A stretch of DNA of 64,000 nucleotides from NCBI GenBank assembly GCA_013285505.1, contig CP053450.1, positions 292,796 to 356,795 on the forward strand, read 5' to 3'. Below the pieces are notes generated by a model, which was not told the DNA's origin, did not search any database, and worked only from the letters and a program-made list of their open reading frames with translations. Positions 1,715 through 51,471 of the stretch are shown in pieces (positions within the stretch are counted from its first letter, which is position 1; each line of letters begins with the position of its first letter). The position numbers were made by a program, and so were the translations under genes. Origin of the DNA: Planctomycetota bacterium. Lineage in GTDB: Bacteria; Planctomycetota; Phycisphaerae; Phycisphaerales; UBA1924.

Positions 1715-4700
1715 TCAACAGTCGGACGTCCAGACGTTGAGGAAGGCCAGCACGTCGCGGGTATCGATGACCCCGTCGCCGTTGAAGTCGCCGGCGGGCT
1801 CGCCGCCGGCCCACGCGTTCAGGAAGGCGAGCACGTCGCGGGAATCGACCAGCCCGTCGCCGTTGAAATCGCCGGGGCAGGTCTGCGCCAAGCCCGTCGC
1901 CCAGGACACCGCCCGCTCGACGATGGTCTTGCCCGCGTTGGTGGTCGTCTGCCAGTTGGCGTCCTCCAGGAACAAGAACACGCGGCGTGCGGGGGCAATG
2001 TGGCCGCCCAGCAGGACCGCGCCAGCCTCGGCCGCGAGAATCGCCGCATCGCCGGGGGCACCCGACCGTGTCGCCAGCACATCCACGCCGGGGGCGATCG
2101 CGCCGCGCCCCAGGCTCATGCTCGACGGAGAGGAGAACACCGCGAGCCCGCCCGGAGACAGGCCCTCGGTGATCGGGTGTGTATTGTCCACGATGTCCAC
2201 CGACACCGTGCCGCCCTCGACGCCGTGGTCGGCCGCGAGCGGCTCGCGGTCGGTCTGCAGCAGGGCGTTCTCCCAGAACACCACCGGGACCTCCTGATCG
2301 CGGAAATCGCCGGCGACGTTGGCCGAGAGGATCGTGGAGGAGAGCACGACCGCGTCGAACTGCGCGGCGATCTCGGCCGCCGTCGGGCGCGCGCCGCGAT
2401 CGTCGTCGAAGCTCGTCACCTCGTAGCCCAGCCCGGCGAGGAAGTCGGCCACGGCCTGGTCGGAGGGCGAGGGGGGCAGCGAGCCGCCAATCATCGCCAC
2501 GGTGGGGAACTGGCCGACCTTGATGTAGCCGTTCTTCTGCTCGACCACGGTCCCGGCCGTGCCCCTGACCACGAGGCGGACGGTGTAGACGCCGTCGAGC
2601 CGCGTAGGTGTGCGTGGGGTGCTGTTGCGAGCTGCCGGTGCCGTCGCCGAAGGACCACTCCCACGCGCTGGCGCCGGGGACGTCGGAGAGATCGGTAAAG
2701 TGCACGGTGAGCGGCCGGTCGCCGGCGCGGACGTCGGCGACGAACTCGGCGGTGCCGACGTAGCGGATGCGGAGGATGTTGGCCCCGCGGTCGATTGGGG
2801 ACGTGTAGTCCCGGTCCTTGTAGAGGTCGCTGAAGTAGAGGCCGTCGGGCCCGGCCGCGATGGCGACGGCGGTGGCCTTGCCCGAGCCGTTGTAGACGAC
2901 CACGTCGCGCTCGCCCTCCACGAGGTTGCCCTCGTCATCGAGGATCCACTCGGTGACCCGCTTGCCCCGGTCCTGGTAGCCGCTGGCCCAGGTGGGGCCG
3001 GACTCGGTGATGAAGGCCCGCCCGTGGCGTTCTGCGGGGAAGCCGCTGCCGCCGAAGACGGAGGGCTGGACGAAGGCGATGTTGACCGGCGCGTGGGCAG
3101 GGTCCCAGTTGTAGATCGCGGAGTTGCGCATCGACTGGTCGGAGCCGTCCCACCGGTAGTTGTGCCCACGGACGGTCTTGGAGAAGCGGTCCACGCTCGG
3201 GCCATTCTCGACGACGTAGTGGGAGCCGTCGGCATCGCGCCATGCGCCGCCGAAGGGGTTGCGCAGTCCGTAGGTGTAGATGTAATCGCGGGCGGTGAAC
3301 CCGTCGCTGGCGTTGTAGAAGGGGTTGTCGGAGGGCACCCAGCCGTTCCTGTCGATCCGCAGGATCTTGCCGCGGAACGAGTTGAGGTCCTGGGCCCGCG
3401 CGGCGTCAAAGCCGTCGCCCATGTGGATATAGAGCATCCCGTCGGGGCCGAAGGTCAGGTTCGAGATCTGGTGCGACTGGCCCTGGGTCTCCCCCACCAT
3501 GTCGAGGACGGTGGTCTGTGTCGCGGCGGTCCTGCCGCCGTCGCTGCTCGTGAAGCGGACCACCTTGGGGTAGTGCGGCGCGTTGTCGTTGTTGGGGTCG
3601 GTGCTGTAGAGCATCGCCGCGTACACGTCGCCGTTGTCGGGGTCCACCGCGATGCCCGTCAGCCCCTGCTCGCCCGAGCCCGGGAAGTTGCCTGTGGGGT
3701 TGAAGTTGAGCAGGCCGGTGGCGTAATCGGCCACGGTGCCGTCGCGCAGCACGACCTTGATGGTGCCGTAGAGCTCGCTGACGTAGTAGTACGGGTCGTC
3801 ATCGTGGCGCAGCCCGTGGTCGGGCGCGAACGCGATGTTGACCGGGAGTTGGAACCCGGTGGCCACCACCTCGACCCGGAAGCCCGGCTGGGCAACGCTC
3901 CACGGCACGGGCGCACCCCGCGCCAGCTCCGCGAAGTCGGGCTCCTCCTGCGAGAGGTCGCCCACGTAGGTGCTGCCGTTGCTGGAGATCCAGAAGACGG
4001 CGCTCTCGCCGGGCTCGAGCGCGGCTGCGGGGAGGTAGACCGTCACCTGTTCGCCCAGCTCGTTGGTGATGATCAGGTCGGACTCGGGCACGCTCAGGCT
4101 CACCGATCCGGCTCGCAGCACGACGCGCGGGTGCGCGTGCTCCTCGAGGGCCGGCGGGTTGACGATCTCGTTGGAGTCACCGTCGATGCCGCGGAGCTCC
4201 AGCAGCAGGTGGCCATCGAACTCGTCCATGACCAGGACGCCGGGCGGGGAACCCGCCGGCAGCGCCAGCGACACGCCGGTGGTGTCCTCCCACCGGGGCG
4301 CGGGGTCCTGGGCGATGTCGATCAGCTCGAGCGGGAAGATGGCGGACGCCTCGCCGGTCTGGAACAGGCGGTCGGCCCAGGGGCTCCAGTCGTTGGACTG
4401 GCCGCTGTCGTCTCTGTGGCGGACACGGAGCACGTACTCGGTCTCGGGGAGCAGTTCGTCGCGCCCGGCGTGCGAGTTCTCGAAGACGCCGTCGCCCAGG
4501 TGCGAGTGCACGCGCTCGACCCCGCCGATGCACTCGGTGACCCACACGCGCTCGGCGGGGTCGAGCGTCCAGATCTCCCAGTCGGTGCACAGGTGGTCGT
4601 CGCCGGGGTCGGGGTCCGAGAAAGGCCCGGTCTCCATGTGCACGTCCGCGGGGTTGAGGATCAGCCCGTCAACCTCCGGCTGCGTGATCAGGGGAGCCGC

Positions 4701-4787
4701 GGGCGGATCGTTCTGCGCGAGGCAGGGGACCGAGACGACAAGTACTCCGAGCCAGGCCAACACTTTGGCGCTGCGTGAGATACACAT
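1715..4787 (-). CDS. secreted multidomain protein: PQQ-type sugar dehydrogenase-like beta-propeller + PKD + unassigned alpha/beta domain + C-terminal Cys-bracketed dockerin-like module; one apparent frameshift
   Basis: Signal-peptide start MCISRSAKVLAWLGVLVVSVPCLAQ at ATG 4787 with GGAGAG just upstream (the track ORF starts further up at 4904). LYIHMGDG, RGKILRIDRNGWVPSDNPF and YTYGLRNPFG indicate a glucose/sorbosone dehydrogenase-like propeller. WEWSFGDGTGSSQQHPTHTYA..DGVYTVRLVV is a PKD domain. The tail is CPGDFNGDG...NVWTSDC-stop. The reading frame switches from ORF 1563..4904 to ORF 1715..3409 inside the PKD motif near 2599-2604. Confidence 0.75.
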
Positions 4788-4943
4788 GAGGATTCTCTCC
4801 AGGGAATCGGACGGGTCGAGTGTACTCCAAAGCGCCCGTGCGCCAAGTATTCTGTTGCGTGCTCCGGCGAGTCGGGCCGGGCTTGCCTGCGCGCGTGCTG
4901 GCACCCCGCAGGAACCGACGGCTCCGCTGCCGGCGCGTAGAAA

Positions 4944-4969
4944 GAGAACCCGCCTCGCGGCGGGTTCTC
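4944..4969 (-). terminator. rho-independent terminator-like hairpin downstream of the 4999..6451 gene
   Basis: gagaacccgcc-tcgc-ggcgggttctc is a perfect 11-bp stem. On the minus strand it is followed by TTTCT. Confidence 0.5.
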
Positions 4970-4998
4970 GGGGGTCTGTCAGAGACTCCGCGTGCGGC

Positions 4999-6451
4999 TT
5001 AGCAGCCGGCGTTCCACAGGTTCAGGAAGGCCAGCACGTCCTGCGTGTTGATGCTGCCGTCGTTGTTGATGTCGGCCGAACCCTCGCCGTTGTTCCAGGC
5101 GTTCAGGAAGGCCAGCACGTCCTGCGTGTTCACCGAGCCGTCGCCGTTGAAGTCGGCCACGCAGTCGTCCACATCGTTCTCGTAGGCGTAGGTGTTGCCG
5201 CCGTTGCCGAACGTGTTGGCGTGGACGGCCTTGCTGCCCACGAGCACATACTTCCCGTCGCGGCTCATGTCCAGCTCGAACGGCGAGCCGTCGGTGTCGA
5301 TCGACCCGATCATGTTGAGGTCGCGGTCAAAGATCCGCACCTCGGGCTCGGTGTTGCTCGCGTCGCCCCACGAGGCCGCAGCGAAGATCGTGCCATCCTC
5401 GTTGGTCTGGGACGCCACCGCCGAGTTCTGGAAGCTGCCCGAGCCCGTGTAGCTGCTCACCGCGACGACCGATCCGTCGGTGAGGTCCACGATGCGGTGC
5501 TCGTTGGTGAGGTAGCCGTCGCCGTAGTCGTGGCTGAGGGCAAAGAGCGTCTGCCCGTCGCCGCTGAGCGACATGCCCCAGCCGAACCAGTCGCTCGAGC
5601 CGTTGCCGGTGTAGACCGACTGCCAGACCCCGCCGACCTCACGCGCCGCACGGATGTTGAATCCGCCCGCAGCGATCGCCGTGCCGTCGCGCGAGATGCG
5701 GTGGTAGCCGCCCGCGCCCGAGGTCTGGATCGAGTACTCCTCGGTCATCGTCGCCACGTCGTAGAGCCGGGCCGTGTTGCCCATGGTCAGCACCATGCGC
5801 GCGCCGCTGTCGTCCATCTCCACGCCCGAGCAGAAGCCCGCGAGAGTCGTCGTGCCGACCACGCCGCCGGATCCATCGAGCACCACCACCAGCGAGTTCG
5901 TCCCGTCGTAGGCCACGGCCGCGACGCGCGAGCCGTCGGCGTTCACCGCCACGTTCCGCTTCGAGGCGTTGTTGTACGCGCTGTCGAAGCCGTAGCTCCA
6001 GAGCGGTGTGTTGCCGCCGGCGTCGGAGAACGCCCGCACGTTGATCGGCCCGCCGCTGGGGTAGCTGATCACCGCGCACTTCGAGGCGTCGGCCGCCGCG
6101 GCCACGCCGATCGTGCCGGGGTTCTCGTCCGCGAGCGAGTACACGAAGTCGGGCACGCCTGCGCCCGCGGTCGTGAACTTGCTCATCCGCTTGTCGTTGA
6201 GCGAGTGGGCCACCCACGACTCGCCGCCGCCGTTGCCCAGCCGCCACCGAGTCGGTGATCGACACCGCGTCGTTGAAGCTCCACAGCAGGCCGGCCCGGG
6301 TGGTCATGCCGTCCTCGCCGAGCATCAGCTGCGGCACAAAGTCGCGGTCCGCGCGCGCGCCGTTGGCGTCGGTCGTCGCCACATCACGCGATGCCTGCTG
6401 TCCGAAAACAGTCCCCGCACACACACAGATAGTCAGTGCTGTCAAACGCAT
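4999..6451 (-). CDS. secreted beta-propeller-like repeat protein with C-terminal Cys-bracketed dockerin-like module; one apparent frameshift
   Basis: Signal-peptide start MRLTALTICVCAGTVFGQQ (ATG 6451, GGAGAG upstream) lies in ORF 5639..6505. The body lies in ORF 4999..6213 and shows repeated ..DG[ST]..a.. blades, e.g. VNADGSRVAAVAYDG, ISRDGTAIAAGG, LSGDGQTLFALS, MSRDGKYVLVGS. The tail CVADFNGDG...NLWNAGC is in the same ORF. Frames join near 6236-6240 (..SITDSVAAG / GNGGGESWVAHSLNDKR..). Confidence 0.65.
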
Positions 6452-6644
6452 TCGATCTCTCCTGTCAGCAGTTGTCCCCGCACAGTCGTCCGCTCCGGGC
6501 ACCAACCCGGGCGAACAGTCAGTCTACCGGATACCCGCGTTTCAGGCACTACCGAACCATGCCCACAACATCCGAATCTTTCATCCAATTGCGGCCCGGC
6601 ATGCAAACAAAACATGCCGAGCCCCCGAGACCACCGGGCCATTC

Positions 6645-9554
6645 TCAACACCCGGAGGTCCAGAAATTCAGGAAGAGCAGGAAGTCCTGGGTGTTCACCG
6701 TGCCGTCGCCGTTGAGGTCGGCCGAGCACACGCCGCCGGAGCAATCCATCACCCGCTGCACGTTCCAGTCGTTCAGATAGGCAAGGAAGTCCTGCGTGTT
6801 CACCGACCCGTCGCCGTTCCAGTCGGCTTGGCACCCGTCCACCACACTCAGGCCGACGAACAATTCACCGACATACACCTCCCATTCCAGCCCGGTGGGC
6901 AGCTCGGGGAGATCCGCGGCCGCGAAGTCGTTGAAGATCCCCCCCAGCGTGTCGATCAACCGGTAACTCTCCCCGCCCTCGGGCACAAAGCCGTCGATCA
7001 GCGACACCCGCAGCGTGCCGCCCAGCGTCGCCGACCCGGCCACCGTGATCACATCGGTATTGTCCGCACCGCCGACATCGACCAGAAGCTGGCCATCGTC
7101 GAACAGCGTGAGATCGCCCACGAAGTCGAACTGGCCCGCCCGAGCGATCCCCCCGGGGATGACGCGCCCGTGGCTCCTGGTGTCCGGCGCCTCGATCGTC
7201 GCGGGTGCCGGCAGCAGGCCGGGCGCGATCACGCCCTGGATGTCACCGAGCACCGAGTGCAGGTCGAGATCGTCGTCGGATTTGACCTTCGCCCCGTCGC
7301 CCACTCCCAGCGTGCCCGAGCCCTCGATGTCGATCTTCGGCGCCATCGTCGTGCCCGACAAGGCCTCGAGTGTCCCGTCGTCGATCGTCAGCGGCTGCCC
7401 GAAGCTCCAGTCCCCGACCGACTCCACCCTCGCCCCGCCGTCGATGGTCTCGACATCCGAGCCCCACGGCTGGCTGGCCGCGTCCCCCCGCACCCGCGTC
7501 CCCTGCCCCGTCACGCGCGAGACCGTGAGGCCCGGGAACGTGATCGACCCGGTCGTCACCACATCCCAATCACCACCCGTCAGCTCGTTGCCGACGATCT
7601 GCACCACGTCCCTGAAGACCGCGTCGGCCTCGTCCACCACCACCGAACCCCGATTGTCGAAACGGACCGCCGCGTTGTGCCCGAACGACGGGCCGTCCGG
7701 ATCCCCGACCATGTACACGCCCGTGTTGGTAAAGAGCCCGCCCGAGCCCACCGCCTGGTTACCGCCCGATCCCTCGACGCTCCACACCCCGGTGTTCTCC
7801 GCCACCCCACCCTCGAACCGCAGCCCCGAATACTGCCGAACATCGACATCGTTCCGCAACAACCCCCGCACGTCCGAAGCCCCCCCCGCGAGCTGCAGTT
7901 CCGCGCTGTTGATCAGCGTCGTCCCCATGTCGCACCCGTGCATCAGCATCCGCCCCTGCTCGTGGCGGATCTCGCCCGTGCCGATCGCGATCACGTTCTC
8001 GACCTCAATCCCGGTTTGCCCCGCGTCGCCGAGGTCCTCGGTCCGCAGCGTGCCGATCACATTGAGTGTGTGCGTCAGCCCGGCAAAGAGCACCCGCCCG
8101 TCCTGCTCGGCACGCGCCACAACATCCCCCGCGATGAACGTCGTGACGTCGATCCCCCCAAAGACCAGCCTGCCGCCGCACCGGCTCGCAGCACGCACCG
8201 TGCCGCCGGTCCACGATCCCCCACCGATGAGATAAACCTCCCCGTCCAAGGTCTCGATCAACCCGCCCGGTCTCAGCTCGACCGGCACGCTCACGGTGTT
8301 CACCCGGAAGTAGCAGGGATCCCCGTCCTCCCGAGGCACCGCGAGGCGCCCGTGGACGAACAGCGACGGCGTGCTCCCGCCCGACGCCCTCGTGATCGAG
8401 GTGCTCGCCTGCGCGCCGGGCAGGAGCACCTCGCCGCCGGTCTCGATCGTCAGGTCCGCGCCGAGCCGCCAGCGACCCCGCCGGGATCTCCACCACACCA
8501 CCACTCTGCACCCACGACGGCACGCGGAGCGTCGACGACCCCACGTTGGTCAGCTTCCCCCCACGGCGATGCCGCCGGTCCCGGCCGGGGAGCTGACCGT
8601 GGCCGAGTGCAGGGCAGCGTTGCCCGAGACCGTCAGGAGCCCGTCGAGCTGCATGGTCCCGTACACATCCAGCGACCCCGGCGACTCCACCGCCGCGCTG
8701 AGCAGTCCGCTGTACACGTTGCTCCCGTTCCGCAGCTCCACCGTGCCGTCGCCCCGGAACGTCACGCCCTCGATCTCGTTGGGGAAGCTCCCCGAGAACC
8801 ACACCTGCCCGCCCTCGGTCGGCTCGATCGCCGTCAGCGCAGCGCATACTCCCCCGCAGGTCCAGGATCCCGCGGTCGGCAAACAGCAGCCCCGCGTTGG
8901 CCTCGAGCCGGGCGTCGATCCGCGACTGGTCGTTCGGGCCCGTCCCCAGGTGCCCGATCTGCCCGCCCGTCAGACGCGTCAGCCCGCCGCTCACCTCGTC
9001 GAGGTCCGCCGTCGTCCGCAGCGCCCAGCGACCCGGTCACATCCACCACGCCCCCGCCCCACGGGAGCACATCGCCCGACGCCACCAGCGAGCCGGCGAT
9101 CGTGAGCTGCGTCCCCTCCACGCGGATCAGCTCCGCGGAGGTCGCCGACCCGGCGATCCGCGCCCCCGCCCGGGCCGCTGAAGATCGTGCCCTTCGACAG
9201 CGTCGTCACCCCGTCCAGCGTCAGCAACCCCTGCGTCACGACCGAGCGCGTGCAACACCCCTGGAGCGTGAAATTCCGGATCGACGAAGGCTCGGCCAGA
9301 TACAGGCTGCGGCTGTCGAGCACCAACCCCGTGTCGGCCAGCAGCGAACGCACATCGATGTCCGCCGACTGCGCCACCGGCACGGCACCCTGCACCAGCA
9401 CCGCGTCCGCCGACCCCGGCACCCCGTCGGGGTCCCAATTCAGATCCGCAAACCAGTCCGTGCTCCCCGCGCCGCCGTCCCAGGCCTTGCTCTGCCCCAT
9501 CGCCGCACCAGCCGAGCACACCAGCACCGCCGCCGTCACCGCCCGATACCGCAT
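6645..9554 (-). pseudogene. beta-helix/adhesin-like surface protein with dockerin-like tail, tandem paralog of 9573..12482, interrupted by about 5 frame changes between 8470 and 9170
   Basis: Start MRYRAVTAAVLVCSAGAAMGQSKAWDGGAGSTDWFADLNWDPDGVP (9554) parallels the neighbour MRYGSVLLCVVGMAAGHALAQSKMWDGDGGNLLWFDGANWDPDGVP. Sensible protein sequence hops between ORFs 8991..9554, 8834..9121, 8005..8994, 8550..8882, 8005..8994 again, and 6645..8504. The changes are near 9168, 9028, 8855, 8557 and 8470, three of them at G5-G6 runs. The tail is CQADWNGDG...NFWTSGC. Confidence 0.7.
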
Positions 9555-9572: not shown

Positions 9573-12482
9573 CTAGCAGCCGCCGGTCCACGTGTTCAGG
9601 AACAGCAGGAAATCCTGCGTGTTCACCGTGCCGTCGCCGTTCAGATCCGCCGTGCACCCGCCGGAGCAGTCCATCAACCGCTGCACGTTCCAGTCGTTCA
9701 GATAGGCAAGGAAGTCCTGCGTGTTCACCGACCCGTCGCCGTTCCAGTCGGCCTGGCACGAGCCGCCAACCACCGAGAGCGTCACGGTCGATTGGCCGTA
9801 GGCCACCTCCCACGACAGATCGCCGGACAGAGTCGGCAGGTCTTCGGCCCCGAACGCCCCGCTCACGCCCCCCGCGGCGTCGATGAGCGTGAACCTCTCA
9901 CCGCCGACCGGCTGGAACTCGTCGATGAAAGACACCCGCAGCGTCGAGCCGGCCAACAGCACCGAGCCGGTCACGGTGAGCACGTCGGTGTTGTCGTCGC
10001 CGCCGATGTCATAGAGCATCTGAGCATCGGCCGTGCACGAGATCCCACCGAGGACGTCTATCTGCCCCGCCCGGCTCTCGCCGCCGGGGATGAGCCGGCC
10101 CCACAGATCGAGCAGCGGCGTCCGCAGCCTCGCGGGCGCACCGATGATGCCCTGGCTTACCACGCCCTCGATGTCGCCGAGCACCGAATGCAGCCGCACA
10201 TCGCCGGTGGACTCGAGCTCTCTCCCCTCGCCAACCTCGATCGTCCCGCCATCGGTCACGCGGATCGACGGCACGTCCGAATCCGCCTCCACGCGAAAAG
10301 TCCCGCCGCGCACCTCGATATTGTCCGCGAACGACACCCCCGAGCCGTGGACCGTCAGCTCCCCCTCCACGACGGCGATGTCCTCCATCCACGGCGCCGA
10401 GAATCCGTCACCGAACACCCGCGTGCCCGGGCCGAGCGAGCTCACCTGCTGGCCCGGGAACCGGATGACACCGAAGTCCAGCGCCGTCCACGTTCCCCCG
10501 GTGAGCTCGCTGTTGACCAGGTTCGTGCAGTCGTAGAAGTCCAGGCTCGCGTTGCGGACCAGAACCACACCGTTGTTCGTAAATGTCGTGCGAATGCGGT
10601 GGCCGTGGCTCGAGCCCGGATCGGCGATCGCCTCGAAGGTCCCGTTGTTGATGAACGACCCCGAGGGCGAGACCACGTAGTCGCCGCTGTTGGCGTCTAG
10701 ACCGAATGTCCACACCCCCTCGTTGCGGATCACACCGCCCTCGAACCCGAGCCCGCCCGAGAACCGGTGCTCGACCGTGCCCTCGTTGATCATCGTGCCC
10801 GCGTTGACAAAGTACCGCTCGATGGTCAACGCGCCGGTGTTGCGGAAGGTGGACTCCAGCCGGAACCCGTTCGAGTCCCCGTCGTCGATCAACGCCGTGC
10901 CCTCGTTGATCAGTTCGCCCTGCCCGCGCACCAGCGCCCGCAGCACCGACCCCACGTTGTTCTGGCCCGTGACGTTCAGCCGGAACGTCCCGGCCAGGTC
11001 GATCGTTGTGCGCCCCGATCCCCCGCCGAGCCAGAAGTCGCCCATCCCCTCCGCGACCGGCTCGCCCGAGACCGCCCACGCGAGGTTGTCGCCCCGCAGC
11101 GCCATGCCAGCGCCGTCCTCGAGCAGCAGAAACGTCCCGCCGCTCAGCTCGCCGCCGCCCTCGAACCGCAGGAACCCGCCGTACTGCTTCACCTCGCCGC
11201 CGGCCCGCATCTCGAACGGCGGGTGGACCGTCAGCACATCGCGATCCGAGTACGACCCCAGGCTCGCGTCGACGCGAACCTGGCCCAGGTTCACGATGTG
11301 CGCCGACTCGCCGCCCGGGACCGTCACCTCCACCGGCACCTCGTTGAACGAGAGCTGACCGCCGGGCTCGATCGTTAGCTCGTCGGTGAGCGACAGCGTC
11401 GCCCGCGGCTGGAGCGTCCCGCCGCTCTTCACCGCCGCCGGGATCTCCACCCTCGAGTTGACCTGGATGTCCACAAAGCCCGATGTCTCGAACGCGCCGG
11501 AACCGCTCTCGTCCCGCAGCGTCGCGCCGAACAGCGTCATGTGCCCGGTGTTCCGCAGCGTCCCGCCGATCCGCAACGGGTTGCGGATCAGCATCGTCCC
11601 AGGGAAGCTCATGTCCGCCGTGTTCGTCCCGCTGAACACCGCGCGCCCGGTCTGCACATAAACCTCGCCGTCCCCCCGCATGGTCGTGCCGCGGACCTCG
11701 CACTCCGACCCCATCAGCAGCTCGACCGTTCCACCATTCCAAGCCTCGATCGTCCCGCCGTCGAAATCACACTCGCCGGTCAGCTCGATCTCCCCCTGAT
11801 CGGCCAGCACCGCCCCCGCGCCCTCGGTGTCGACCGATCCCACAAACCGCATCAGCCCCGGTTCGGCGATCTGGATCGTGCCCCGGTTCACCACCACCGC
11901 CGGGCCGACCACCCGGCCGATCCCGGAGCCACCGACACCCGTCACCGTCCCCTCCACCACGATCCGCCCCAAGTCCCACGGCTCCAACGCGCCCGAAGAG
12001 GTCATCAGCATCTCCCCCGCGATGATCACCTCGTGCGCATCACGCGCATAGAGCTGCTCGTCATTGAGCACCATCCCCCCCAGCGTCGTCACCCCCGACC
12101 CGCGGAAGCTCGCCGACTTGCCCAGCACCGAAGACCCCTCGACCAACAGCGTCGAGTTGTGCGTGATCTCCGGCCGGCAGCACCCGCCCGTGAACAACCC
12201 CACAATCCGCGAACCCCCCGTGAAGGTCAGGGAGGAGCTGACGATCTCGAGCCCGCTGAGCGCCTCAAGCGAGGCGACCTCCACCGGCTGCGACTCGGCG
12301 ACCACCCGACCCCCCGCGTCCACCAACACGCTCTCGAACGCCTCCGGCACCCCGTCCGGGTCCCAGTTCGCCCCGTCAAACCACAGCAAGTTCCCGCCGT
12401 CCCCGTCCCACATCTTGCTCTGCGCAAGCGCATGACCCGCAGCCATCCCAACCACACACAACAGCACCGACCCGTATCGCAT
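9573..12482 (-). CDS. secreted beta-helix/adhesin-like repeat protein (Gly-rich beta-strand repeats) with C-terminal dockerin-like module
   Basis: Intact 969-codon frame from ATG 12482 (signal peptide MRYGSVLLCVVGMAAGHALAQ; the track ORF starts 10 codons earlier). Long series of G-rich strand repeats. C-terminal region GRLIPGGESRAGQIDVLGG...DNTDVLTVTGSVLLAGSTLRVSFIDEF is followed by CQADWNGDG...NTWTGGC-stop. GGAAGGAG precedes the next gene start (9554), suggesting an operon with 6645..9554. Confidence 0.8.
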   Translation of the reverse strand: MRYGSVLLCVVGMAAGHALAQSKMWDGDGGNLLWFDGANWDPDGVPEAFESVLVDAGGRVVAESQPVEVASLEALSGLEIVSSSLTFTGGSRIVGLFTGGCCRPEITHNSTLLVEGSSVLGKSASFRGSGVTTLGGMVLNDEQLYARDAHEVIIAGEMLMTSSGALEPWDLGRIVVEGTVTGVGGSGIGRVVGPAVVVNRGTIQIAEPGLMRFVGSVDTEGAGAVLADQGEIELTGECDFDGGTIEAWNGGTVELLMGSECEVRGTTMRGDGEVYVQTGRAVFSGTNTADMSFPGTMLIRNPLRIGGTLRNTGHMTLFGATLRDESGSGAFETSGFVDIQVNSRVEIPAAVKSGGTLQPRATLSLTDELTIEPGGQLSFNEVPVEVTVPGGESAHIVNLGQVRVDASLGSYSDRDVLTVHPPFEMRAGGEVKQYGGFLRFEGGGELSGGTFLLLEDGAGMALRGDNLAWAVSGEPVAEGMGDFWLGGGSGRTTIDLAGTFRLNVTGQNNVGSVLRALVRGQGELINEGTALIDDGDSNGFRLESTFRNTGALTIERYFVNAGTMINEGTVEHRFSGGLGFEGGVIRNEGVWTFGLDANSGDYVVSPSGSFINNGTFEAIADPGSSHGHRIRTTFTNNGVVLVRNASLDFYDCTNLVNSELTGGTWTALDFGVIRFPGQQVSSLGPGTRVFGDGFSAPWMEDIAVVEGELTVHGSGVSFADNIEVRGGTFRVEADSDVPSIRVTDGGTIEVGEGRELESTGDVRLHSVLGDIEGVVSQGIIGAPARLRTPLLDLWGRLIPGGESRAGQIDVLGGISCTADAQMLYDIGGDDNTDVLTVTGSVLLAGSTLRVSFIDEFQPVGGERFTLIDAAGGVSGAFGAEDLPTLSGDLSWEVAYGQSTVTLSVVGGSCQADWNGDGSVNTQDFLAYLNDWNVQRLMDCSGGCTADLNGDGTVNTQDFLLFLNTWTGGC

Positions 12483-12679
12483 CTCCAAAGACTCCCAAGG
12501 CCAAACCAACATCCCTCATGCGACAGCCCTCCAAAATAACTGACCCGCACGTGAGGGTCAACGCCAATCCGGCACCAGATCGCCCAACTTGCCCAAGAAG
12601 CCCCGCCGCACGCGCATACCGGACGCATGCCCCCACCACGCACGCGCACCGGACACAGGCCCCACCACGCGAGGCGCAG

Positions 12680-12755: not shown

Positions 12756-14270
12756 TCAGTCCGGGCAGCCGAACGACCACACGTTCAGCCAGTCCAGGAA
12801 GTCGAGCACATCGATCGAACCGTCCATGTTGAAATCAGCGCCGGAGTCCTGCGACGCCCAGTCGTTCAGGAACGCCGTGAAGTCCCGCGTGTTGTTGTCG
12901 CCATCCCCGTTCCAGTCGGCCATGCAGTCGTAGGCCACCACCAGGATGAACTCCGTGCCCGCCGGCTCGAAGATCGAGATGTCACTCGCGACACTCAGCG
13001 TCAGGGTGTTCTCCCCGCCGCGGAACAATTCGTGCTCGTCGGTATACACCGGGTCGGGCGTCGGCCAACCCACCACCGGATGGCCGCCGGGGGCGATCCG
13101 GTCGGTGCCGAAGTTGTCGATGTCCTGCTGCTCGATCAGCGGCGAGATCGGCGAGTCGTTCAGGAAGACCACGCCCATGTCGTCCGCGTTCGCCACGCCG
13201 TAGAGCTGTGCGCGCTCAAACTGCGGCGGCAGGAAGAACTCGAACCGGTAGAACGCGCTCTCGCAGTTGTGCCGCGTCACCTCGTCGGCGCCGGTCAGAT
13301 ACTCCTCGCTGTCCACGTACGACCGGTCCAGCAGATCCGTGCACTCGAACGCCGCACGCTGGTGCAGGTCGTGATGACGGTTGACGATCGGCGCCCACGT
13401 CCCCAGCCACTGCCCCGCGTTGATCCGCGAGATCTGCCCGCTCAGCGGCCCCACGATCGGCTCCGTGCTCCCCTCCATCGAGCTCGACAGCCGCAGGAAA
13501 CGCCGCCGCCCGGCCTCATCCCCCCAGCGGTGCGGCAGAGGGTCGTCGTCCCCGATGTCGTAGCCGGTGCCCAGGTGTGCATGCCGCCCCGAACCGCTGT
13601 GGTCCAGCACCACGTTCGAGCCAAACTCGTCGAACCGGTACCACGCCATCATCCCGTCGTAGCTCTCTTCCGAGAAATCGCCCATCATGTCCCTGGCGAT
13701 CTGCTCCTCGGTCCTCGCCTCGCTCCAGACAAGCACATCGTCGAACCCGCCGTGCACGAACTCGCTCGAGCCCGCGTACTCGTTGCCAATCGTCAGCTGG
13801 GCCTGCTCACCCACCGGGTTGATCGGGTCGCCCAGCACCGCCTCGGCGTCCAGCACGCCGTCGATGTAGATCTTGGCCGTCGTCCCGTCGTAGGTCGCCG
13901 CGACGTGGTGCCACTCCCGCAGCGGCAGCGCCGTCGTGCCGACCATGGTCCGCTGCGTCCCGTTGTTGTAATTGATGAAGAACGTCAGCCGCCGGTCCGC
14001 CGGCGAGCGAATCGCAAAGCTGTACGACCCCTGCAGCCGCGAACCCCATGTGACCAGGCCCGACGAATACAGCGGATGGCTGTCGTCCACCCGCACCCAG
14101 GTCTCCAGCGTGACCTCCTCGGTCGTGAAGTCCGCGTACGACACCACCGAGTCGTTCACGCCGTCCAGATCGACATACGCCCCACAGTCACACGGCTGCC
14201 CAAACGCCGCAGCCGCCGCACACGCCAGCCCCGCCGCAAACCCCACCGCCATAGTCGTTCGCTGCACCAT
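12756..14270 (-). CDS. secreted LamG/concanavalin-A-like lectin domain protein with dockerin-like tail (ends GCPD)
   Basis: MVQRTTMAVGFAAGLACAAAAAFGQ is a signal peptide. VTLETWVRVDD...WHHVAATYDGTTAKIYIDGVL...FDDVLVWSEARTEEQI is the typical LamG_3 jelly-roll pattern. The tail is CMADWNGDGDNNTRDF...NVWSFGCPD-stop. Confidence 0.8.
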   Translation of the reverse strand: MVQRTTMAVGFAAGLACAAAAAFGQPCDCGAYVDLDGVNDSVVSYADFTTEEVTLETWVRVDDSHPLYSSGLVTWGSRLQGSYSFAIRSPADRRLTFFINYNNGTQRTMVGTTALPLREWHHVAATYDGTTAKIYIDGVLDAEAVLGDPINPVGEQAQLTIGNEYAGSSEFVHGGFDDVLVWSEARTEEQIARDMMGDFSEESYDGMMAWYRFDEFGSNVVLDHSGSGRHAHLGTGYDIGDDDPLPHRWGDEAGRRRFLRLSSSMEGSTEPIVGPLSGQISRINAGQWLGTWAPIVNRHHDLHQRAAFECTDLLDRSYVDSEEYLTGADEVTRHNCESAFYRFEFFLPPQFERAQLYGVANADDMGVVFLNDSPISPLIEQQDIDNFGTDRIAPGGHPVVGWPTPDPVYTDEHELFRGGENTLTLSVASDISIFEPAGTEFILVVAYDCMADWNGDGDNNTRDFTAFLNDWASQDSGADFNMDGSIDVLDFLDWLNVWSFGCPD

Positions 14271-16118: not shown

Positions 16119-16170
16119 CCGGGACCCCCAACCCCGCACCGAGTCCCCACACGCCCCGCCGCATCCTGCC

Positions 16171-16197: not shown

Positions 16198-16264
16198 TTG
16201 GGGAAAGGGCTCCGTCCCCTACTACTTCTTCTCTACCCCACTAACCCCGCACGGCCCAGCCCCC

Positions 16265-28000: not shown

Positions 28001-28201
28001 GCGGACAGGCGCGGCTCGCAAAGTGGAGATCTGGGCAAGGCTGAGGGCTCTCGGACGGGCGGTCGCTGTGCTGCGACGGGGCCGATTGTCTGGGGATTTG
28101 GTGGTAGGGGTTGGGGGGCGCGTGCAGAATGTGTGTGTTGTGCCGCGTGTGCGGCTGTGGTGCCGTTCTGGTGCTGCGGCGCGGTGCTGGAGTCTTCGGA
28201 G

Positions 28202-28876: not shown

Positions 28877-29056
28877 GGGCGGCTTTGGGGCCCGGTTTCT
28901 GCGGGGCTCGGGCTTGATCGGGATGGCCGAGTCTGTAGGCTGTGGTGGTGTGGGGTGCGGATTGCGGGGACGAGAGTTTGGGAGGGCCCGTCCGGGTTCT
29001 CGGACGGGGATGCAGCACACACACGCGATAGAAATTCGATTCAGGGAGTTTGCACC

Positions 29057-33745: not shown

Positions 33746-33845
33746 GTCCGGTAACGGCCTGATGTCCGGGAATGTGTTTCAGAAACCGGACCTTGTTGGA
33801 TAGAATACGTGTGGTGGGATGCACTCTGGGATGAGGAGAGAGATC

Positions 33846-37787: not shown

Positions 37788-37920
37788 GGGATTTTTCTAG
37801 CGAAACCCGTAGGAGCGGGTGGTTCCATTCTCGCGTCTCCTTCCGGAGGATGCAACAGCCGCGTCGGAACCGGGGCCCGGTGTCCCGGAGCGCACGCGGC
37901 TTTGTGACGGAGGCGATGCC

Positions 37921-39513: not shown

Positions 39514-39580
39514 CCGCCAGTCTTGACCGCGGGATCGGTGCCGCAGCGGGGGCCTGTGTCCCCACAGGGAGAGTTGTTTG

Positions 39581-39979
39581 ATGAGTACGAACCGGAAGTT
39601 GCTGGTGGCTGGTGTGGTCTTGAGTTTCGCGGGGTGTGCGTGGGGCCAGAGCTTCACGATCCCCTGGCACACGATCGACGGCGGCGGCGGGGCCGCGGCC
39701 GGCGGGGGCTTCACGCTGTCGGGCACGATCGGCCAGCACGACGCCGGCGGGCCGATGACCGGCGGCGGCTATTCGCTGACCGGCGGCTTCTGGGCTGCGC
39801 CGATGGGCGATCCGTGTGTCGGAGATTTCAACGGTGATGGGACCGTGAACACGCTCGATGTGCTGGCGTTCCTGAACGCGTGGACCGCTGCGGAGGGCTC
39901 GGCGGACATCAACGGTGACGGGACGGTGAACACGCTGGATGTGCTGGCGTTCCTGAACGCGTGGACGGCGGGGTGTTGA
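39581..39979 (+). CDS. small secreted Gly-rich protein with dockerin-like tail
   Basis: ATG 39581 after AGGGAGAG. MSTNRKLLVAGVVLSFAGCAWGQ is a signal peptide. FTIPWHTIDGGGG..GGGFTLSGTIGQHDAG..MTGGGYSLTGGFWA, then CVGDFNGDG...NAWTAGC-stop. Confidence 0.75.
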   Translation: MSTNRKLLVAGVVLSFAGCAWGQSFTIPWHTIDGGGGAAAGGGFTLSGTIGQHDAGGPMTGGGYSLTGGFWAAPMGDPCVGDFNGDGTVNTLDVLAFLNAWTAAEGSADINGDGTVNTLDVLAFLNAWTAGC

Positions 39980-43961: not shown

Positions 43962-44357
43962 GGCGTGCTCCTCGCACTGGGGCTCCGGCCCCGACGACTC
44001 GCGGCGGTGCTGGGGGGGAGCTGCACCCGTCGCGAATCTTCCAGTTGCTCTCTCGCGCCGTCGCGGCCGCGAAACGCGGGGGTCGGACGCAGCGGCGGCT
44101 TGTGTTCGCCTCTCGGTCAGAGACGACAGATCCCGCCAGCGTCCTCATTGTGACGATCCGCCCGCCGATTGCAAGGACCAAATCCGGGCGTAGGGCCTGG
44201 GCTCGATGGCGGAAGCTGGGAAAGCTCGCCGCGACACGAGTGTGCTGCCATCAGTCTTTGCACAATCGACGGTGGCGAGAAAGAACTTCGATCCGCTGCG
44301 GGTCTTTGTTACACTTTCTGTGCCCGTTTGCTTCACTTGTACCCGGAGTTGAACCTC

Positions 44358-44756
44358 ATGAAGACCACACCCACACTGTTGGCGTTTGGGCTGTCTGTTG
44401 CCATCGCCGAGTCGGCCGGGGCACAGATGTTCTCCATTCCCTGGCACACGATCGACAACGGCGGTGGCAGTTCGGTCGGTGGGTCGTTTGTGCTCACGGG
44501 CACCATCGGCCAGCACGATGCCCACCCATCGATGACCGGCGGCGGCTTCACGCTGACCGGCGGCTTCTGGGCGGCGGACGAGGTCGACGTGTGCGTCGGC
44601 GACTTCAACGGCGACGGCACCGTCAACACACTCGATGTACTCGCCTTTCTGAACGCCTGGACCGCCGGAGAGGGTTCGGCGGACATCAACGGGGACGGAA
44701 CCGTGAACACGCTCGATGTACTCGCCTTTCTGAACGCCTGGACCGCCGGCTGCTGA
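44358..44756 (+). CDS. small secreted Gly-rich protein with dockerin-like tail (paralog of 39581..39979)
   Basis: ATG 44358. MKTTPTLLAFGLSVAIAESAGAQ is a signal peptide. FSIPWHTIDNGGG..GGSFVLTGTIGQHDAH..MTGGGFTLTGGFWA, then CVGDFNGDG...NAWTAGC-stop. Confidence 0.75.
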   Translation: MKTTPTLLAFGLSVAIAESAGAQMFSIPWHTIDNGGGSSVGGSFVLTGTIGQHDAHPSMTGGGFTLTGGFWAADEVDVCVGDFNGDGTVNTLDVLAFLNAWTAGEGSADINGDGTVNTLDVLAFLNAWTAGC

Positions 44757-44792
44757 ACGGACCGCACTTGCCACGTATTGGAGGAGACAATC

Positions 44793-50079: not shown

Positions 50080-50106
50080 GCACGGAACACCATCTGCACA
50101 TGACAA

Positions 50107-50133
50107 GAACCCCCACGCGAGGCGTGGGGGTTC
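50107..50133. terminator. rho-independent terminator between convergent dnaN and the 50167..51471 gene
   Basis: gaacccccacgc-gag-gcgtgggggttc is a perfect 12-bp stem followed by tgtgtttct. Confidence 0.7.
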
Positions 50134-50166
50134 TGTGTTTCTCGGAAGAGATGTACCGACGCGGGC

Positions 50167-51471
50167 TCAGCAGCCGCCGGTCCAGAGGTTCAGGAAGGCG
50201 AGGAAGTCCACCGTGTTGACGGTGCCGTCGAGGTTGATGTCGGCGCAGGGGTCCTGGTTGTTCCAGCTATTGAGGTAGGCCAGCACGTCCTGAGTGTTGG
50301 CGATGCCGTCGCCGTTGACGTCGCCCATGCAGGCCAGGCCGCGGATCACGCCGGCGTCGGCGAGCGTGGCCGCGGCACCGTCGCCCGGGTTGGCGTTGAT
50401 CGTCACGTGCAGCCCGTTGAACGCGCGGCCCTCGAACTTCCAGGCGTCGTAGACGAAGTCGTCGTTCGGGTCGTCGGGGGTCTCGTTGTCGCTGGTGCGC
50501 TGCTCGGTATCGTCGAGGGTCGAGCCGACGAGCAGGACTGCGGCGCAGAAGTCGGCGCCGGTCACGCGGCCGTCAAAATCGATGTCCCCGGGCACGAAGC
50601 GGAACTGGGACTCGTTGACCGAGTCGTTGTACGCGCCGGGGGTGACGAAGAAGTCGGTGGTGTTGAACCCGGTCGGGGCGCCCATCTCGTCCACGTCGTA
50701 CTTGAGCGTGTCGAGCAGGAGGGTCTCGCCGTAGACGAGTTCCTCGTCGGCACGGCGCGGCTGCGGGCCGGGGTTGACGCCGTTGTACCCCACGCGGCTG
50801 ACCACGTCGGGGTTGAAGCCGGGGGTCTCGGAGATCTCGTCCTGGCTGTCGCGGGTGTACTCCTTGCCGCCGTTGTTGCTCCAGGCGATGTTGTCGACCA
50901 TCTGGTAGGGCTCGAGCACGCGGCCGTAGGACTGGTAGGGCGCACCGAAGTCGATGTGCGAGTCCCAGTTCTCGTCCGGGTCGATGTCCTTGCGCCACGA
51001 GGTGGTGAAGCCGCCGAAGTTGTCGACGGGGCGCTGGCGGACCAGCACATAGGTGGACGAGTCGTCGTTGCCCAGCTTGCCCGGGGTGTCGATGGTGTCG
51101 ATGTGCTGCAGCGTGAAGTACGCGATGGCGGTCTCGGGATCGGCCTCGGCCTCGCTGAAGCTGCCGCCGCCGGTGTCGTTGAGCAGCACCAGCAGGCCGT
51201 TGCTGCCGATGGTGAGCCCGTCGAGGCTGAAGGCCTCGTCGATCTCGGAGGGGAGGTCGGCGTTGTCGTCGCCGTCGGGGTCGTTGCCGCCCTTGACCAG
51301 CGCGATGGCGTAGCCGTCGAGTCTCATCCCGGGCGGGCCGTAGAACTCGACGAACTCCCAGAACTCGTCGTTGCCGCCGGGGGGGTTCTCCCAGACCTCG
51401 TTGATGACAACCTGAGCGCTCGACGCGGTGCCGAGTGCGCAGAGTAGCGCGAGTGCGGACATCTTCTTCAT
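50167..51471 (-). CDS. secreted lamin-tail-domain (LTD) protein with dockerin-like tail
   Basis: ATG 51471 (GGAGAG upstream). MKKMSALALLCALGTASSAQ is a signal peptide. VVINEVWENPPGGNDEFWEFVEFYGPPGMRLDGYAIA is the LTD signature. The tail is CMGDVNGDGIANTQDVLAYLNSW...NLWTGGC-stop. The track ORF extends upstream to 51801 in shadow sequence. Confidence 0.8.
   Translation of the reverse strand: MKKMSALALLCALGTASSAQVVINEVWENPPGGNDEFWEFVEFYGPPGMRLDGYAIALVKGGNDPDGDDNADLPSEIDEAFSLDGLTIGSNGLLVLLNDTGGGSFSEAEADPETAIAYFTLQHIDTIDTPGKLGNDDSSTYVLVRQRPVDNFGGFTTSWRKDIDPDENWDSHIDFGAPYQSYGRVLEPYQMVDNIAWSNNGGKEYTRDSQDEISETPGFNPDVVSRVGYNGVNPGPQPRRADEELVYGETLLLDTLKYDVDEMGAPTGFNTTDFFVTPGAYNDSVNESQFRFVPGDIDFDGRVTGADFCAAVLLVGSTLDDTEQRTSDNETPDDPNDDFVYDAWKFEGRAFNGLHVTINANPGDGAAATLADAGVIRGLACMGDVNGDGIANTQDVLAYLNSWNNQDPCADINLDGTVNTVDFLAFLNLWTGGC

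What the first reader, a model, noticed from the sequence alone, without database searches (positions are those of the whole stretch)
1715..51471. Thirteen proteins in one 64-kb window end in the same double EF-hand/dockerin-like module with a terminal Cys, and no cohesin-like partner is in sight
Seen: thirteen genes end in the same tail. They are the genes ending at 1715, 4999, 6645, 9573, 12756 and 50167 (minus strand) and at 27043, 28000, 30594, 33745, 34736, 39979 and 44756 (plus strand). The tail reads C-x2-D-[FWIAV]-N-x-DG-x-[VIA]-[ND]-[TS]-x-D-[VF]-L-x-[FY]-L-N-x-W, then a short linker, a second copy, and [GD]-C at or 2 residues from the stop. Each half is a 12-residue D-x-N-x-D-G-...-D calcium-loop-like segment followed by a helix. 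That is the duplicated F-hand layout known from cellulosomal dockerins (established). The passengers are unrelated: a PQQ-dehydrogenase-like propeller + PKD, a second propeller, two beta-helix adhesin-like proteins, two LamG, GH13, a BNR double propeller, LTD, a local-family protein and two tiny Gly-rich proteins. This is about 13 of 47 genes. Inference: a shared docking or anchoring system for a surface-displayed enzyme and adhesin repertoire, i.e. a cellulosome-like or sorting-like system in a planctomycete. I recall the NCBI protein name 'GC-type dockerin domain-anchored protein' for such tails. I know of no experimental description of its receptor or mechanism.
Basis: partly seen in the sequence, partly recalled or inferred. 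Interest (0 to 1): 0.8.

Follow-up and report, generated by a model that had tools for sequence, protein, structure and literature searches.

The report
Shared dockerin-like tail on secreted proteins
Thirteen secreted proteins in this Phycisphaerales (planctomycete) genome segment end in the same small calcium-loop "dockerin" module bracketed by two cysteines; NCBI already catalogues this tail, it most likely tethers enzymes and adhesins to the cell surface, and its receptor is still unknown.

Summary
All 13 gene ends carry the tail: 26 calcium-loop repeats, and none anywhere else in the six reading frames. All 13 pass NCBIfam NF041540 "GC-type dockerin domain-anchored protein", and 11 of 13 pass Pfam Dockerin_1. 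A high-confidence AlphaFold model (pLDDT 95.7) matches only dockerins from solved cohesin-dockerin complexes, not calmodulin-type EF-hands.

The family is specific to Phycisphaerales and has many copies per genome, usually clustered. It is very uniform: Cys at -3, a 7-residue linker, and Cys as the last residue.

New evidence supports an anchoring role. In one passenger family, three tandem paralogues in the window and 106 homologues elsewhere carry either this kind of tail or a PEP-CTERM-like membrane anchor at the same junction. All 13 proteins have signal peptides. Tandem-module relatives keep one Cys pair per module, which points to an intramodule disulfide "clasp".

No cohesin was found in any window ORF. 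The one local receptor candidate I tested is not cohesin-like. Whether the window is enriched over the genome average could not be tested.

Caveat: three of the 13 genes, and also bamA, are frameshifted in this assembly, probably through sequence errors.

Verdict: new members of a catalogued but unstudied family. Moderately interesting.

The parts
1715..4904 (-). Glucose/sorbosone dehydrogenase propeller + PKD + unassigned domain + GC-dockerin tail (tail 1718-1885). The frame changes near 2610-2625.
   Evidence: GSDH PF07995 E 1.4e-32 and PKD. NF041540 53 bits.
4999..6455 (-). Beta-propeller-like protein with tail (5002-5169). The frame changes near 6240, and the signal peptide lies in the upstream frame.
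   Evidence: NF041540 59.9 bits. The intact orthologue in L025 has a signal peptide.
6645..9554 (-). Large repeat-rich adhesin-like paralogue with tail (6648-6839; its linker is 8 residues longer and carries two extra Cys). The reading frame is disrupted between about 8500 and 9150.
   Evidence: NF041540 43.4 bits.
9573..12512 (-). Intact 979-aa adhesin-like paralogue with tail (9576-9764; extended linker with two extra Cys).
   Evidence: NF041540 45.5 bits. No passenger family matched.
12756..14270 (-). LamG (Laminin_G_3) protein with tail (12759-12932). It ends in GCPD.
   Evidence: 35.8 bits; Laminin_G_3 E 1e-27. An orthologue in L025 also ends in GCPD.
24698..27043 (+). GH13 enzyme (CBM48 + alpha-amylase + C-terminal domain) with tail (26873-27040).
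   Evidence: (58.1 bits).
27074..28000 (+). 308-aa protein with an unassigned passenger, a lipobox-like signal peptide and tail (27830-27997).
   Evidence: 57.7 bits. JB054 has a different passenger at this position.
28133..28876 (+). Paralogue 1 of the DHxHxTVDT family. It ends in a PEP-CTERM-like anchor (VPGPGG + hydrophobic stretch + RRRGRG) instead of the dockerin tail.
28955..29716 (+). Paralogue 2 of the DHxHxTVDT family. It ends in a PEP-CTERM-like anchor (VPAPAG...RRRR).
   Evidence: The tail region gives weak matches to exosortase-dependent families (E 0.004-0.007).
29809..30594 (+). Paralogue 3 of the DHxHxTVDT family. The GC-dockerin tail (30424-30591) starts at the same VPG junction.
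   Evidence: (60.7 bits). The body has a confident all-beta fold that is not cohesin-like.
31493..33745 (+). BNR/sortilin-type double propeller with tail (33575-33742).
   Evidence: NF041540 44.2 bits; F510_1955 family 172 bits against a cut-off of 175.
33819..34736 (+). LamG protein with tail (34566-34733). The second loop has Leu in place of Gly.
   Evidence: 56.7 bits.
39578..39979 (+). Small protein: signal peptide + Gly-rich module + tail (39809-39976). It lies directly downstream of the fibre-like gene 37819-39513.
   Evidence: (55.6 bits).
44169..44756 (+). Second small Gly-rich protein with tail (44586-44753). It lies directly upstream of the fibre-like gene 44778-46436.
   Evidence: (56.7 bits).
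50167..51477 (-). 436-aa protein with a weak LTD match and tail (50170-50337).
   Evidence: 52.7 bits; LTD E 0.006.
52632..53321 (+). Lamin-tail-domain protein ending in a PEP-CTERM-like anchor (IPAPAP...RRR). This is the third such anchor in the window.
   Evidence: (LTD E 1e-17).

Best explanation
The tails are GC-type dockerin modules (NCBIfam NF041540).

Anatomy. Each is a 56-residue minimal dockerin made of two calcium-binding loops of the form D-x-N-x-D-G-x-V-N-T-x-D. Each loop is followed by a helix, and an exactly 7-residue linker joins the two halves. Two cysteines bracket the module: one three residues before the first loop and one as the final residue.

Proposed mechanism (inferred):
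1. The proteins are exported by their signal peptides.
2. In the oxidising, calcium-containing extracytoplasmic space the module folds around two Ca2+ ions.
3. The two terminal cysteines form a disulfide. This is a covalent version of the 'intramolecular clasp' that holds dockerin termini together.
4. The nearly invariant helix faces of both halves (T10, L14, A15, N18) bind one common receptor on the cell surface. This non-covalently tethers a varied set of enzymes, lectin-like proteins, adhesins and fibre-associated proteins.

Functionally the tail is an alternative to the PEP-CTERM/exosortase type of anchor used by paralogues of the same proteins. The receptor, whether a cohesin-like protein or something else, is not identified.
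For: Identity of the module:
- 13 of 13 tails exceed the NF041540 cut-off.
- 11 of 13 exceed the Pfam Dockerin_1 gathering score.
- A profile of the tails matches solved dockerins (4fl4, 6kg9, 1ohz, 2ccl, 2y3n) at E 6e-6 to 6e-5.
- The AlphaFold2 model has pLDDT 95.7 and two helices. Eleven of its 12 best PDB matches are dockerins from cohesin-dockerin complexes (TMq 0.55-0.67), while calmodulin- and calpain-type EF-hands score about 0.25-0.33.

Export: all 13 have signal-peptide-like N-termini, three of them only after frame correction.

Disulfide clasp:
- Of 145 distinct tails found with a pattern that did not require Cys, 139 have both cysteines.
- 138 have the N-terminal Cys at exactly -3, and 141 have a 7-residue linker.
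- Proteins with two tandem modules (P0125, P0130) keep one Cys pair per module, so the Cys works inside the module rather than as a C-terminal chemical handle.
- The lengthened linkers of the two adhesin paralogues add exactly two more Cys.
- Dockerin termini are known to contact each other and stabilise the module (PMC3821032).

Selection on the protein sequence: tails are 63-96% identical in amino acids but only 64-80% in nucleotides. Two tails with 54 of 56 identical residues share only 80% of their bases.

Anchoring role:
- Three tandem paralogues with 40-43% identical bodies switch at the same VPG junction between a PEP-CTERM-like anchor (two of them) and the dockerin tail (one).
- Among 106 homologues of that family, all those with a source name being Phycisphaerae, 42 end in PEP-CTERM-like anchors, 22 in strict GC-dockerins, and 42 in other tails, nearly all of them divergent double-loop dockerin-like tails.
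- In 122 relatives the passengers are typical surface or secreted proteins: 11 subtilases, 7 FG-GAP, 7 PQQ-type propellers, 5 beta-helix, 3 PMP repeats, 3 cupredoxins.
Against: - No receptor was found. No window ORF matches cohesin.
- The PEP-CTERM-anchored local family, the obvious candidate for an 'anchoring scaffoldin', has a confident all-beta fold with no cohesin match (best TMq 0.36).
- Calcium binding, the disulfide and surface location are all inferred. The tools gave no model coordinates, so I could not measure the Cys-Cys distance.
- The PEP-CTERM-like tails are recognised by motif and by weak, sub-threshold HMM matches only.
- Exchange of tails shows an equivalent position, not an equivalent function.
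- How the proteins would cross the outer membrane is unknown.
- Three of the 13 genes are frameshifted in this assembly.
Confidence: 0.55

Rival explanations
1. The tail is a secretion or sorting signal. A dedicated outer-membrane export or sorting machine recognises the folded C-terminal domain, as with the T9SS C-terminal domain or the C-terminal sorting signals handled by exosortase or rhombosortase. The tail may then be removed or modified at the terminal Cys.
For: - The tail is strictly C-terminal: 111 of 128 tails in relatives stop right after the Cys.
- It is interchangeable with a PEP-CTERM-like sorting signal.
- The family is large and lineage-specific, which is typical of sorting systems.
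- A CPBP-family intramembrane protease gene lies in the window at 61933-63369, with weak similarity to sorting-system proteases MrtJ and MrtS.
Against: - The module has no transmembrane segment and no cleavage motif.
- It folds like a protein-binding dockerin.
- Tandem-module proteins carry an internal copy with its own Cys pair, so a free C-terminal Cys is not required.
- The CPBP matches are far below their cut-offs, and its best match is an ABC-permease fusion family.
Confidence: 0.15
2. The tail binds no specific partner. It is a calcium-dependent folding, stability or solubility cap for secreted proteins, or a calcium-dependent switch.
For: - Many bacteria and archaea carry dockerin-like modules without detectable cohesins (established knowledge: Peer et al. 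2009, which I could not open).
- No cohesin is seen here.
Against: - Predicted solvent-exposed helix positions (T10, L14, A15, N18) are 73-98% conserved in both halves across 145 tails from many genomes and unrelated passengers.
- Synonymous sites have diverged freely. A stability cap would not need this.
- The exchange with a membrane anchor is hard to explain.
Confidence: 0.1
3. The tails bind each other (homotypic dockerin-dockerin contacts or intermolecular disulfides), cross-linking secreted proteins into an extracellular matrix rather than docking on a receptor.
For: - The two halves of a tail are near-symmetrical (12-21 of 22 residues identical).
- There are dozens of carriers per genome.
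- Some relatives have 2-18 tandem modules.
Against: - One Cys pair per module favours intramodule bonds.
- Homotypic association is not a known property of dockerins (established knowledge).
- I have no direct evidence either way.
Confidence: 0.08
4. It is a true cellulosome: enzymes assembled on a multi-cohesin scaffoldin for polysaccharide breakdown.
For: - The fold is a dockerin fold.
- One GH13 carries the tail, and a GH5/CBM9 protein lies nearby.
- A two-cohesin scaffoldin has been reported in another Phycisphaerae member, Limihaloglobus (PMC11557425).
Against: - Only 1 of 13 passengers is a glycoside hydrolase, and the GH5/CBM9 protein has no tail.
- Passengers in relatives are mostly proteases, propellers and adhesin-like repeats.
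- No cohesin is present in the window.
Confidence: 0.03

Closest known systems
NCBIfam NF041540, 'GC-type dockerin domain-anchored protein' (dockerin_GC)
   Same: All 13 tails match the whole 67-position model above its curated cut-off. They are C-terminal and end in Gly/Asp-Cys. Relatives in Phycisphaerales MAGs already carry this NCBI name.
   Different: Nothing differs; these are members. The family is only a curated annotation model. I found no paper on it, and no receptor or mechanism has been described.
Type I dockerins of clostridial and ruminococcal cellulosomes (Pfam PF00404)
   Same: - Two 12-residue calcium loops with the same ligand pattern (D1, N3, D5, N9, D12; compare DVNDDGKVNSTD), each followed by a helix.
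- Internal two-fold symmetry.
- A predicted fold that superposes on dockerins from solved complexes.
- Contact between the termini (the clasp, PMC3821032).
   Different: - Shorter: a 7-residue linker with no middle helix, 27 residues between loop starts, and about 7 fewer residues than the Pfam model.
- The clasp is a Cys pair.
- The helix motif is DVLAFLNxW.
- The host is a Gram-negative-type planctomycete.
- Passengers are mostly not carbohydrate-active enzymes.
- No cohesin has been identified.
'Planctosome' hypothesis for Nemodlikiaceae (Phycisphaerae), Andrei et al. 2019, PMC6461901
   Same: Non-cellulosomal dockerin-bearing secreted proteins in Phycisphaerae, proposed to assemble on the cell surface. 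Lamin-tail-domain proteins are part of the picture in both cases.
   Different: That model rests on detectable cohesin modules and on peptidases in a different family of organisms, and is itself untested. Here no cohesin is seen and the tail is the Cys-bracketed variant.
PEP-CTERM / exosortase sorting signals
   Same: Same position at the extreme C-terminus of secreted proteins. They occur on paralogues and homologues of the same passenger family at the same junction.
   Different: PEP-CTERM is a transmembrane helix plus a basic tail that is processed by a membrane enzyme. The GC tail is a soluble folded calcium-binding domain, so any anchoring would be non-covalent.
Calmodulin-type EF-hand pairs
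   Same: The loop consensus is shared. A profile of the tails also matches Entamoeba calcium-binding protein 1 (E 3e-7).
   Different: The predicted three-dimensional arrangement does not superpose (TMq about 0.25-0.33). There is no helix entering each loop.

Membership tests
NCBIfam NF041540 GC-type dockerin | Score at or above the curated cut-off (29 bits) over the full model | tested here: met
   13 of 13 tails, 35.8-60.7 bits, model positions 1-67.
NCBIfam NF041540 GC-type dockerin | Module at the extreme C-terminus, ending in Gly-Cys | tested here: met
   Eleven end in GC, one in DC and one in GCPD. In relatives, 111 of 128 tails stop right after the Cys.
Dockerin type I (Pfam PF00404) | Score at or above the Pfam gathering score (22.9 bits) | tested here: met
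   11 of 13 tails score 23.7-39.1 bits. One scores 21.8, and the gene ending at 12756 has no hit.
Dockerin type I (Pfam PF00404) | Duplicated F-hand calcium loop + helix, with the dockerin three-dimensional arrangement | tested here: met
   The loop pattern is invariant at D1, N3 and D5 and nearly so at N9 and D12. The AlphaFold2 model (pLDDT 95.7) superposes on dockerins at TMq 0.55-0.67 and not on calmodulin-type proteins. This is a prediction, not a solved structure.
Dockerin type I (Pfam PF00404) | Calcium-dependent folding | not testable with these tools
   Needs calorimetry or circular dichroism on the purified tail.
Dockerin type I (Pfam PF00404) | Binds a cohesin module | tested here: inconclusive
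   No PF00963 match at E <= 0.01 in about 60 window ORFs. The DHxHxTVDT family is not cohesin-like. The rest of the genome was not available.
Cellulosome | Scaffoldin with several cohesins encoded with the dockerin enzymes | tested here: not met
   None in the window (the same Pfam scans). Not testable genome-wide.
Cellulosome | Dockerin carriers are mainly carbohydrate-active enzymes | tested here: not met
   One GH13 among 13 carriers. Two of 122 relatives match Alpha-amylase_C, against 11 subtilases and many propellers and adhesin repeats.
PEP-CTERM sorting domain | P-E-P-like motif, transmembrane helix and basic C-terminus | tested here: not met
   The GC tails lack all three. Three other window proteins have them, at motif level and with weak HMM support only.

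The most novel reading that the evidence does not exclude
Phycisphaerales use a cohesin-independent docking system. A disulfide-clasped mini-dockerin binds a so far unrecognised surface receptor, either a new protein fold or an envelope glycan. It serves as the non-covalent counterpart of exosortase sorting for dozens of surface proteins per cell. The tail-coding repeats would also act as recombination handles, letting passengers be swapped between tails, as suggested by the passenger replacement between this genome and JB054 whose breakpoints lie at two tails.
Probability: 0.25. Interest if true: 0.7.

Novelty: new member of a known kind. Interest (0 to 1): 0.42.

Why it matters
Little is known about how planctomycetes attach proteins to their unusual cell surface. 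This one small tail marks a large share of the secreted enzymes, lectin-like proteins and adhesins of a whole order. In this window it is on 13 of about 45 genes, and at least 2,431 protein clusters carry it in public data. Finding its receptor would define a new surface-display system in Gram-negative-type bacteria and extend the cohesin-dockerin principle beyond cellulosomes. It would also give a compact 56-residue calcium-dependent tag for protein display.

The exchange of this tail with PEP-CTERM-like anchors on the same passenger gives a concrete comparison to test. On its own, though, the finding is a set of new members of an already catalogued family.

Tried and rejected
1. Is the tandem DHxHxTVDT family the cohesin-like receptor? 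Two copies carry PEP-CTERM-like anchors and one carries a dockerin, which resembles anchoring and adaptor scaffoldins. AlphaFold2 gave a confident all-beta model (pLDDT 97.5), but Foldseek found no cohesin and no convincing match at all (best TMq 0.36). Rejected as a cohesin. Its function is unknown.

2. A passenger census by word-indexed search with the tail profile returned only short fragments. I replaced it with a Pfam scan of 122 ORFs taken from related loci.

3. Two 'PEP-CTERM' Pfam hits among tail-bearing relatives were spurious. They are RCC1-repeat proteins with a repeated DVPEPNSGF motif.

4. I tested the two LTD proteins as a second tail-swap pair. Their bodies are barely similar (E 0.045), so I do not count this as evidence.

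5. Recent gene conversion among tails is rejected, because nucleotide identity is only 64-80%.

6. Local enrichment over the genome average could not be tested. The window's own genome is not among the GTDB representatives (best tail identity 91-93%), and its proteins occur only on short Logan contigs.

7. Peer et al. 2009 on non-cellulosomal dockerins could not be opened.

8. There are no tRNA genes or Rfam matches in the window.

Full report
**Observation**

I translated the 100 codons before each of the 13 stated stops. Every one shows the same tail. A six-frame motif scan finds 25 loop-plus-helix units. A 26th has Leu in place of Gly. All lie at those 13 gene ends and none elsewhere in the window.

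The alignment of the tails (A1) has 18 invariant columns. These include the calcium-loop positions, the L-N-x-W motif of both helices, a Cys three residues before the first loop, and a Cys at the end. All but one protein stop directly after that Cys (eleven end in GC, one in DC); the exception ends in GCPD. The two adhesin-like paralogues have a linker 7-8 residues longer that carries two extra Cys.

**What the tail is**

- All 13 tails exceed the curated cut-off of NCBIfam NF041540, 'GC-type dockerin domain-anchored protein' (35.8-60.7 bits against 29).
- Eleven exceed the Pfam Dockerin_1 gathering score.
- A profile of the tails matches solved dockerins (4fl4, 6kg9, 1ohz, 2ccl, 2y3n) and also an EF-hand protein.
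- The fold discriminates between these. An AlphaFold2 model built on 110 sequences has pLDDT 95.7 with two helices at 15-27 and 42-54. Eleven of its 12 best PDB matches are dockerins taken from cohesin-dockerin complexes (TMq 0.55-0.67). Calmodulin and calpain EF-hands reach only about 0.25-0.33.

The loop pattern D-x-N-x-D-G-x-V-N-T-x-D has the same ligand positions as in Clostridium thermocellum dockerins (established knowledge).

The differences from classical type I dockerins are:
- a fixed 7-residue linker with no middle helix;
- the Cys pair;
- the helix motif D-V-L-A-F-L-N-x-W.

**Organism and spread**

The window is chromosomal. It carries nuoG, lpd, rlmL, a transketolase gene, dnaN, bamA, skp and lpxD/lpxC.

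The 80 best tails came from about 13 MAGs. Most are named Phycisphaerales or Phycisphaeraceae, a few only Planctomycetota, and one only 'bacterium'.

Phycisphaerales bacterium JB054 is syntenic with window 23.9-43 kb at 87-90% nucleotide identity. The window therefore comes from a related species.

A profile search of 1.84 billion cluster representatives gives 2,431 proteins at E <= 1e-10. Most carry the module at their very end.

In the 80 related loci (462 kb) there are 128 tails:
- 37 loci hold two or more tails within 6 kb;
- 111 tails stop right after the Cys.

A pattern that did not require Cys found 145 distinct tails:
- 139 have both Cys;
- 138 have the first Cys at exactly -3;
- 141 have a 7-residue linker.

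**Are the carriers exported?**

All 13 have a signal-peptide-like N-terminus ending in A/G-Q. For three genes this is visible only after frame correction.
- Gene 1715-4904 changes frame inside its PKD domain.
- Gene 4999-6455 has its signal peptide in another frame. The intact orthologue in L025 confirms the full-length form.
- Gene 6645-9554 leaves and re-enters its frame twice.

The essential bamA gene is also split between two frames. Its POTRA domains lie in 53820-~55850 and its Omp85 barrel in 55867-56577. I therefore read these frameshifts as probable assembly errors rather than pseudogenes. This is an inference.

**Evidence about function**

1. *Selection acts on the protein sequence.* Tails are 63-96% identical in amino acids but only 64-80% in nucleotides. 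The two small proteins share 54 of 56 tail residues but only 80% of the bases. The similarity is therefore not due to recent gene conversion. Positions predicted to face outward on the helices (T10, L14, A15, N18) are 73-98% conserved in both halves across genomes and passengers. This fits one common binding partner and a two-fold symmetric, dual-mode surface.

2. *The Cys pair belongs to the module.* Relatives with two tandem modules (P0125, P0130) keep a Cys before and after each module. Known dockerins are stabilised by a contact between residues -3 to -1 and the C-terminus, the 'intramolecular clasp' (PMC3821032). The N-terminal Cys here sits in that segment. A disulfide clasp is therefore the most economical reading, but I could not measure it.

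3. *Tail exchange.* Genes 28133-28876, 28955-29716 and 29809-30594 are tandem paralogues with 40-43% identical bodies. The first two end in VP[GA]P + hydrophobic stretch + RRR(R), a PEP-CTERM-like anchor. The third switches to the dockerin tail at the same V-P-G junction. Of 106 homologues of this family, all those with a source name being Phycisphaerae:
   - 42 end in PEP-CTERM-like anchors;
   - 22 end in strict GC-dockerins;
   - 42 end in other tails, nearly all divergent double-loop dockerin-like tails. Many of these also end in GC or GCP, and one variant has no Cys.

   The same passenger is thus fitted with either a membrane-anchor signal or a dockerin-type tail. This is what one expects if both serve to retain the protein at the cell surface.

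4. *Passengers.* In the window they are a GSDH propeller with PKD, another propeller, two large repeat proteins, two LamG proteins, a GH13, a BNR propeller, a weak LTD match, the local family, an unassigned protein and two small Gly-rich proteins. In 122 relatives they are subtilases, FG-GAP and PQQ-type propellers, beta-helices, PMP repeats, cupredoxins and others. This is a surface and secreted repertoire, not a cellulase set.

**The receptor**

No ORF in the window matches cohesin at E <= 0.01. I tested the most suggestive local candidate, the PEP-CTERM-anchored DHxHxTVDT family. Its body folds confidently into an all-beta domain (pLDDT 97.5). It has no cohesin match and no good match to any solved structure. 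The receptor remains unknown.

The literature held here has no paper on 'GC-type dockerin'. It does contain an untested 'planctosome' proposal with cohesin and dockerin modules in another Phycisphaerae family (PMC6461901). It also reports a two-cohesin scaffoldin in Limihaloglobus (PMC11557425).

**Conclusion**

The most likely mechanism is calcium-dependent, disulfide-stabilised, non-covalent docking of many secreted proteins to a shared surface receptor. It is supported indirectly by:
- export signals on all 13 proteins;
- conserved exposed faces on both helices;
- exchange of the tail with PEP-CTERM-like anchors.

None of this is demonstrated experimentally. 'Cellulosome-like' is not supported.

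The family is already curated at NCBI, so these are new members of a known but unstudied kind. I could not test whether this window is richer in carriers than the rest of the genome. Clustering of carriers is, however, common around such genes in related genomes.

Noticed in passing
window 53820-56577 (bamA); also about 2615, about 6240, 8500-9150 and about 40000-40100: The essential bamA gene is split between two reading frames (POTRA part and Omp85 barrel). Three tail-bearing genes and the 3' end of the GH5/CBM9 gene also change frame. The sites are not long homopolymers. Short-read contigs of the same organism match 46.9-50.2 kb almost perfectly (one 3-base indel). The errors therefore look local, or these are real mutations.
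   Followed up: partly
window 28133-30594: A Phycisphaerae-restricted family (motifs DHxHxTVDT and HxHxQ, with several conserved His) has a confidently predicted all-beta fold and no good match in the PDB (best TMq 0.36). It may be a metal-binding surface domain of unknown function.
   Followed up: partly
window 37819-39979 and 44169-46436; L030 1211-3165: Each small Gly-rich dockerin protein lies next to a paralogous fibre-like protein. One of these fibre proteins has a Peptidase_S74 intramolecular chaperone domain. The pairing is conserved in JB054. The Gly-rich module (W-x-T-I-D-G-G-G-G ... G-T-I-G-Q-x-D-A-G ... G-G-F-W) is a widespread small secreted protein family (Verrucomicrobia, Chloroflexi, Methylomirabilota) that normally has no tail.
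   Followed up: partly
window 27041-27857 versus L005 3169-4910: JB054 has a 634-aa beta-helix passenger where the window has an unrelated 308-aa protein. Nucleotide homology stops at the end of the GH13 tail and resumes inside the next tail. The replaced passenger is therefore flanked by tail-coding repeats, which share exact words of up to 33 bases. This suggests recombination at the tails.
   Followed up: partly
window 50196: Three independent short-read (Logan) contigs of this organism all end at the same base, inside the tail of gene 50167-51477. This is as expected if the tail-coding repeats break short-read assemblies.
   Followed up: no
window 16000-23200: This stretch has lower G+C (0.62 against 0.67-0.69) and weak third-position codon bias. 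Its ORFs match no family except a DUF2726 protein (21556-22164). It may be foreign DNA. It sits at the point where gene orientation and GC skew change sign (about 24 kb), and dnaN is at 48.9 kb, so the replication origin may be near.
   Followed up: no
window 61933-63369: A CPBP/Rce1-like intramembrane protease gene gives weak, sub-threshold similarity to proteases of C-terminal sorting systems (MrtJ, MrtS). I found no evidence linking it to the Cys-terminal tails.
   Followed up: partly
window 57306-59369: A single 687-aa ORF combines LpxD (N-terminal domain and hexapeptide repeats) with LpxC. This is either a gene fusion or two genes joined by another sequence error.
   Followed up: no
window 51531-52583 and 60138-61067: Two proteins carry prepilin-type N-terminal cleavage/methylation motifs, which are typical of the large pilin-like families of planctomycetes.
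   Followed up: no
P0121-P0123, P0125, P0130 (relatives outside the window): Some proteins carry 2 to 18 tandem copies of the module, each bracketed by Cys. Some variants are very Cys-rich. Their organisms and roles are unknown.
   Followed up: partly
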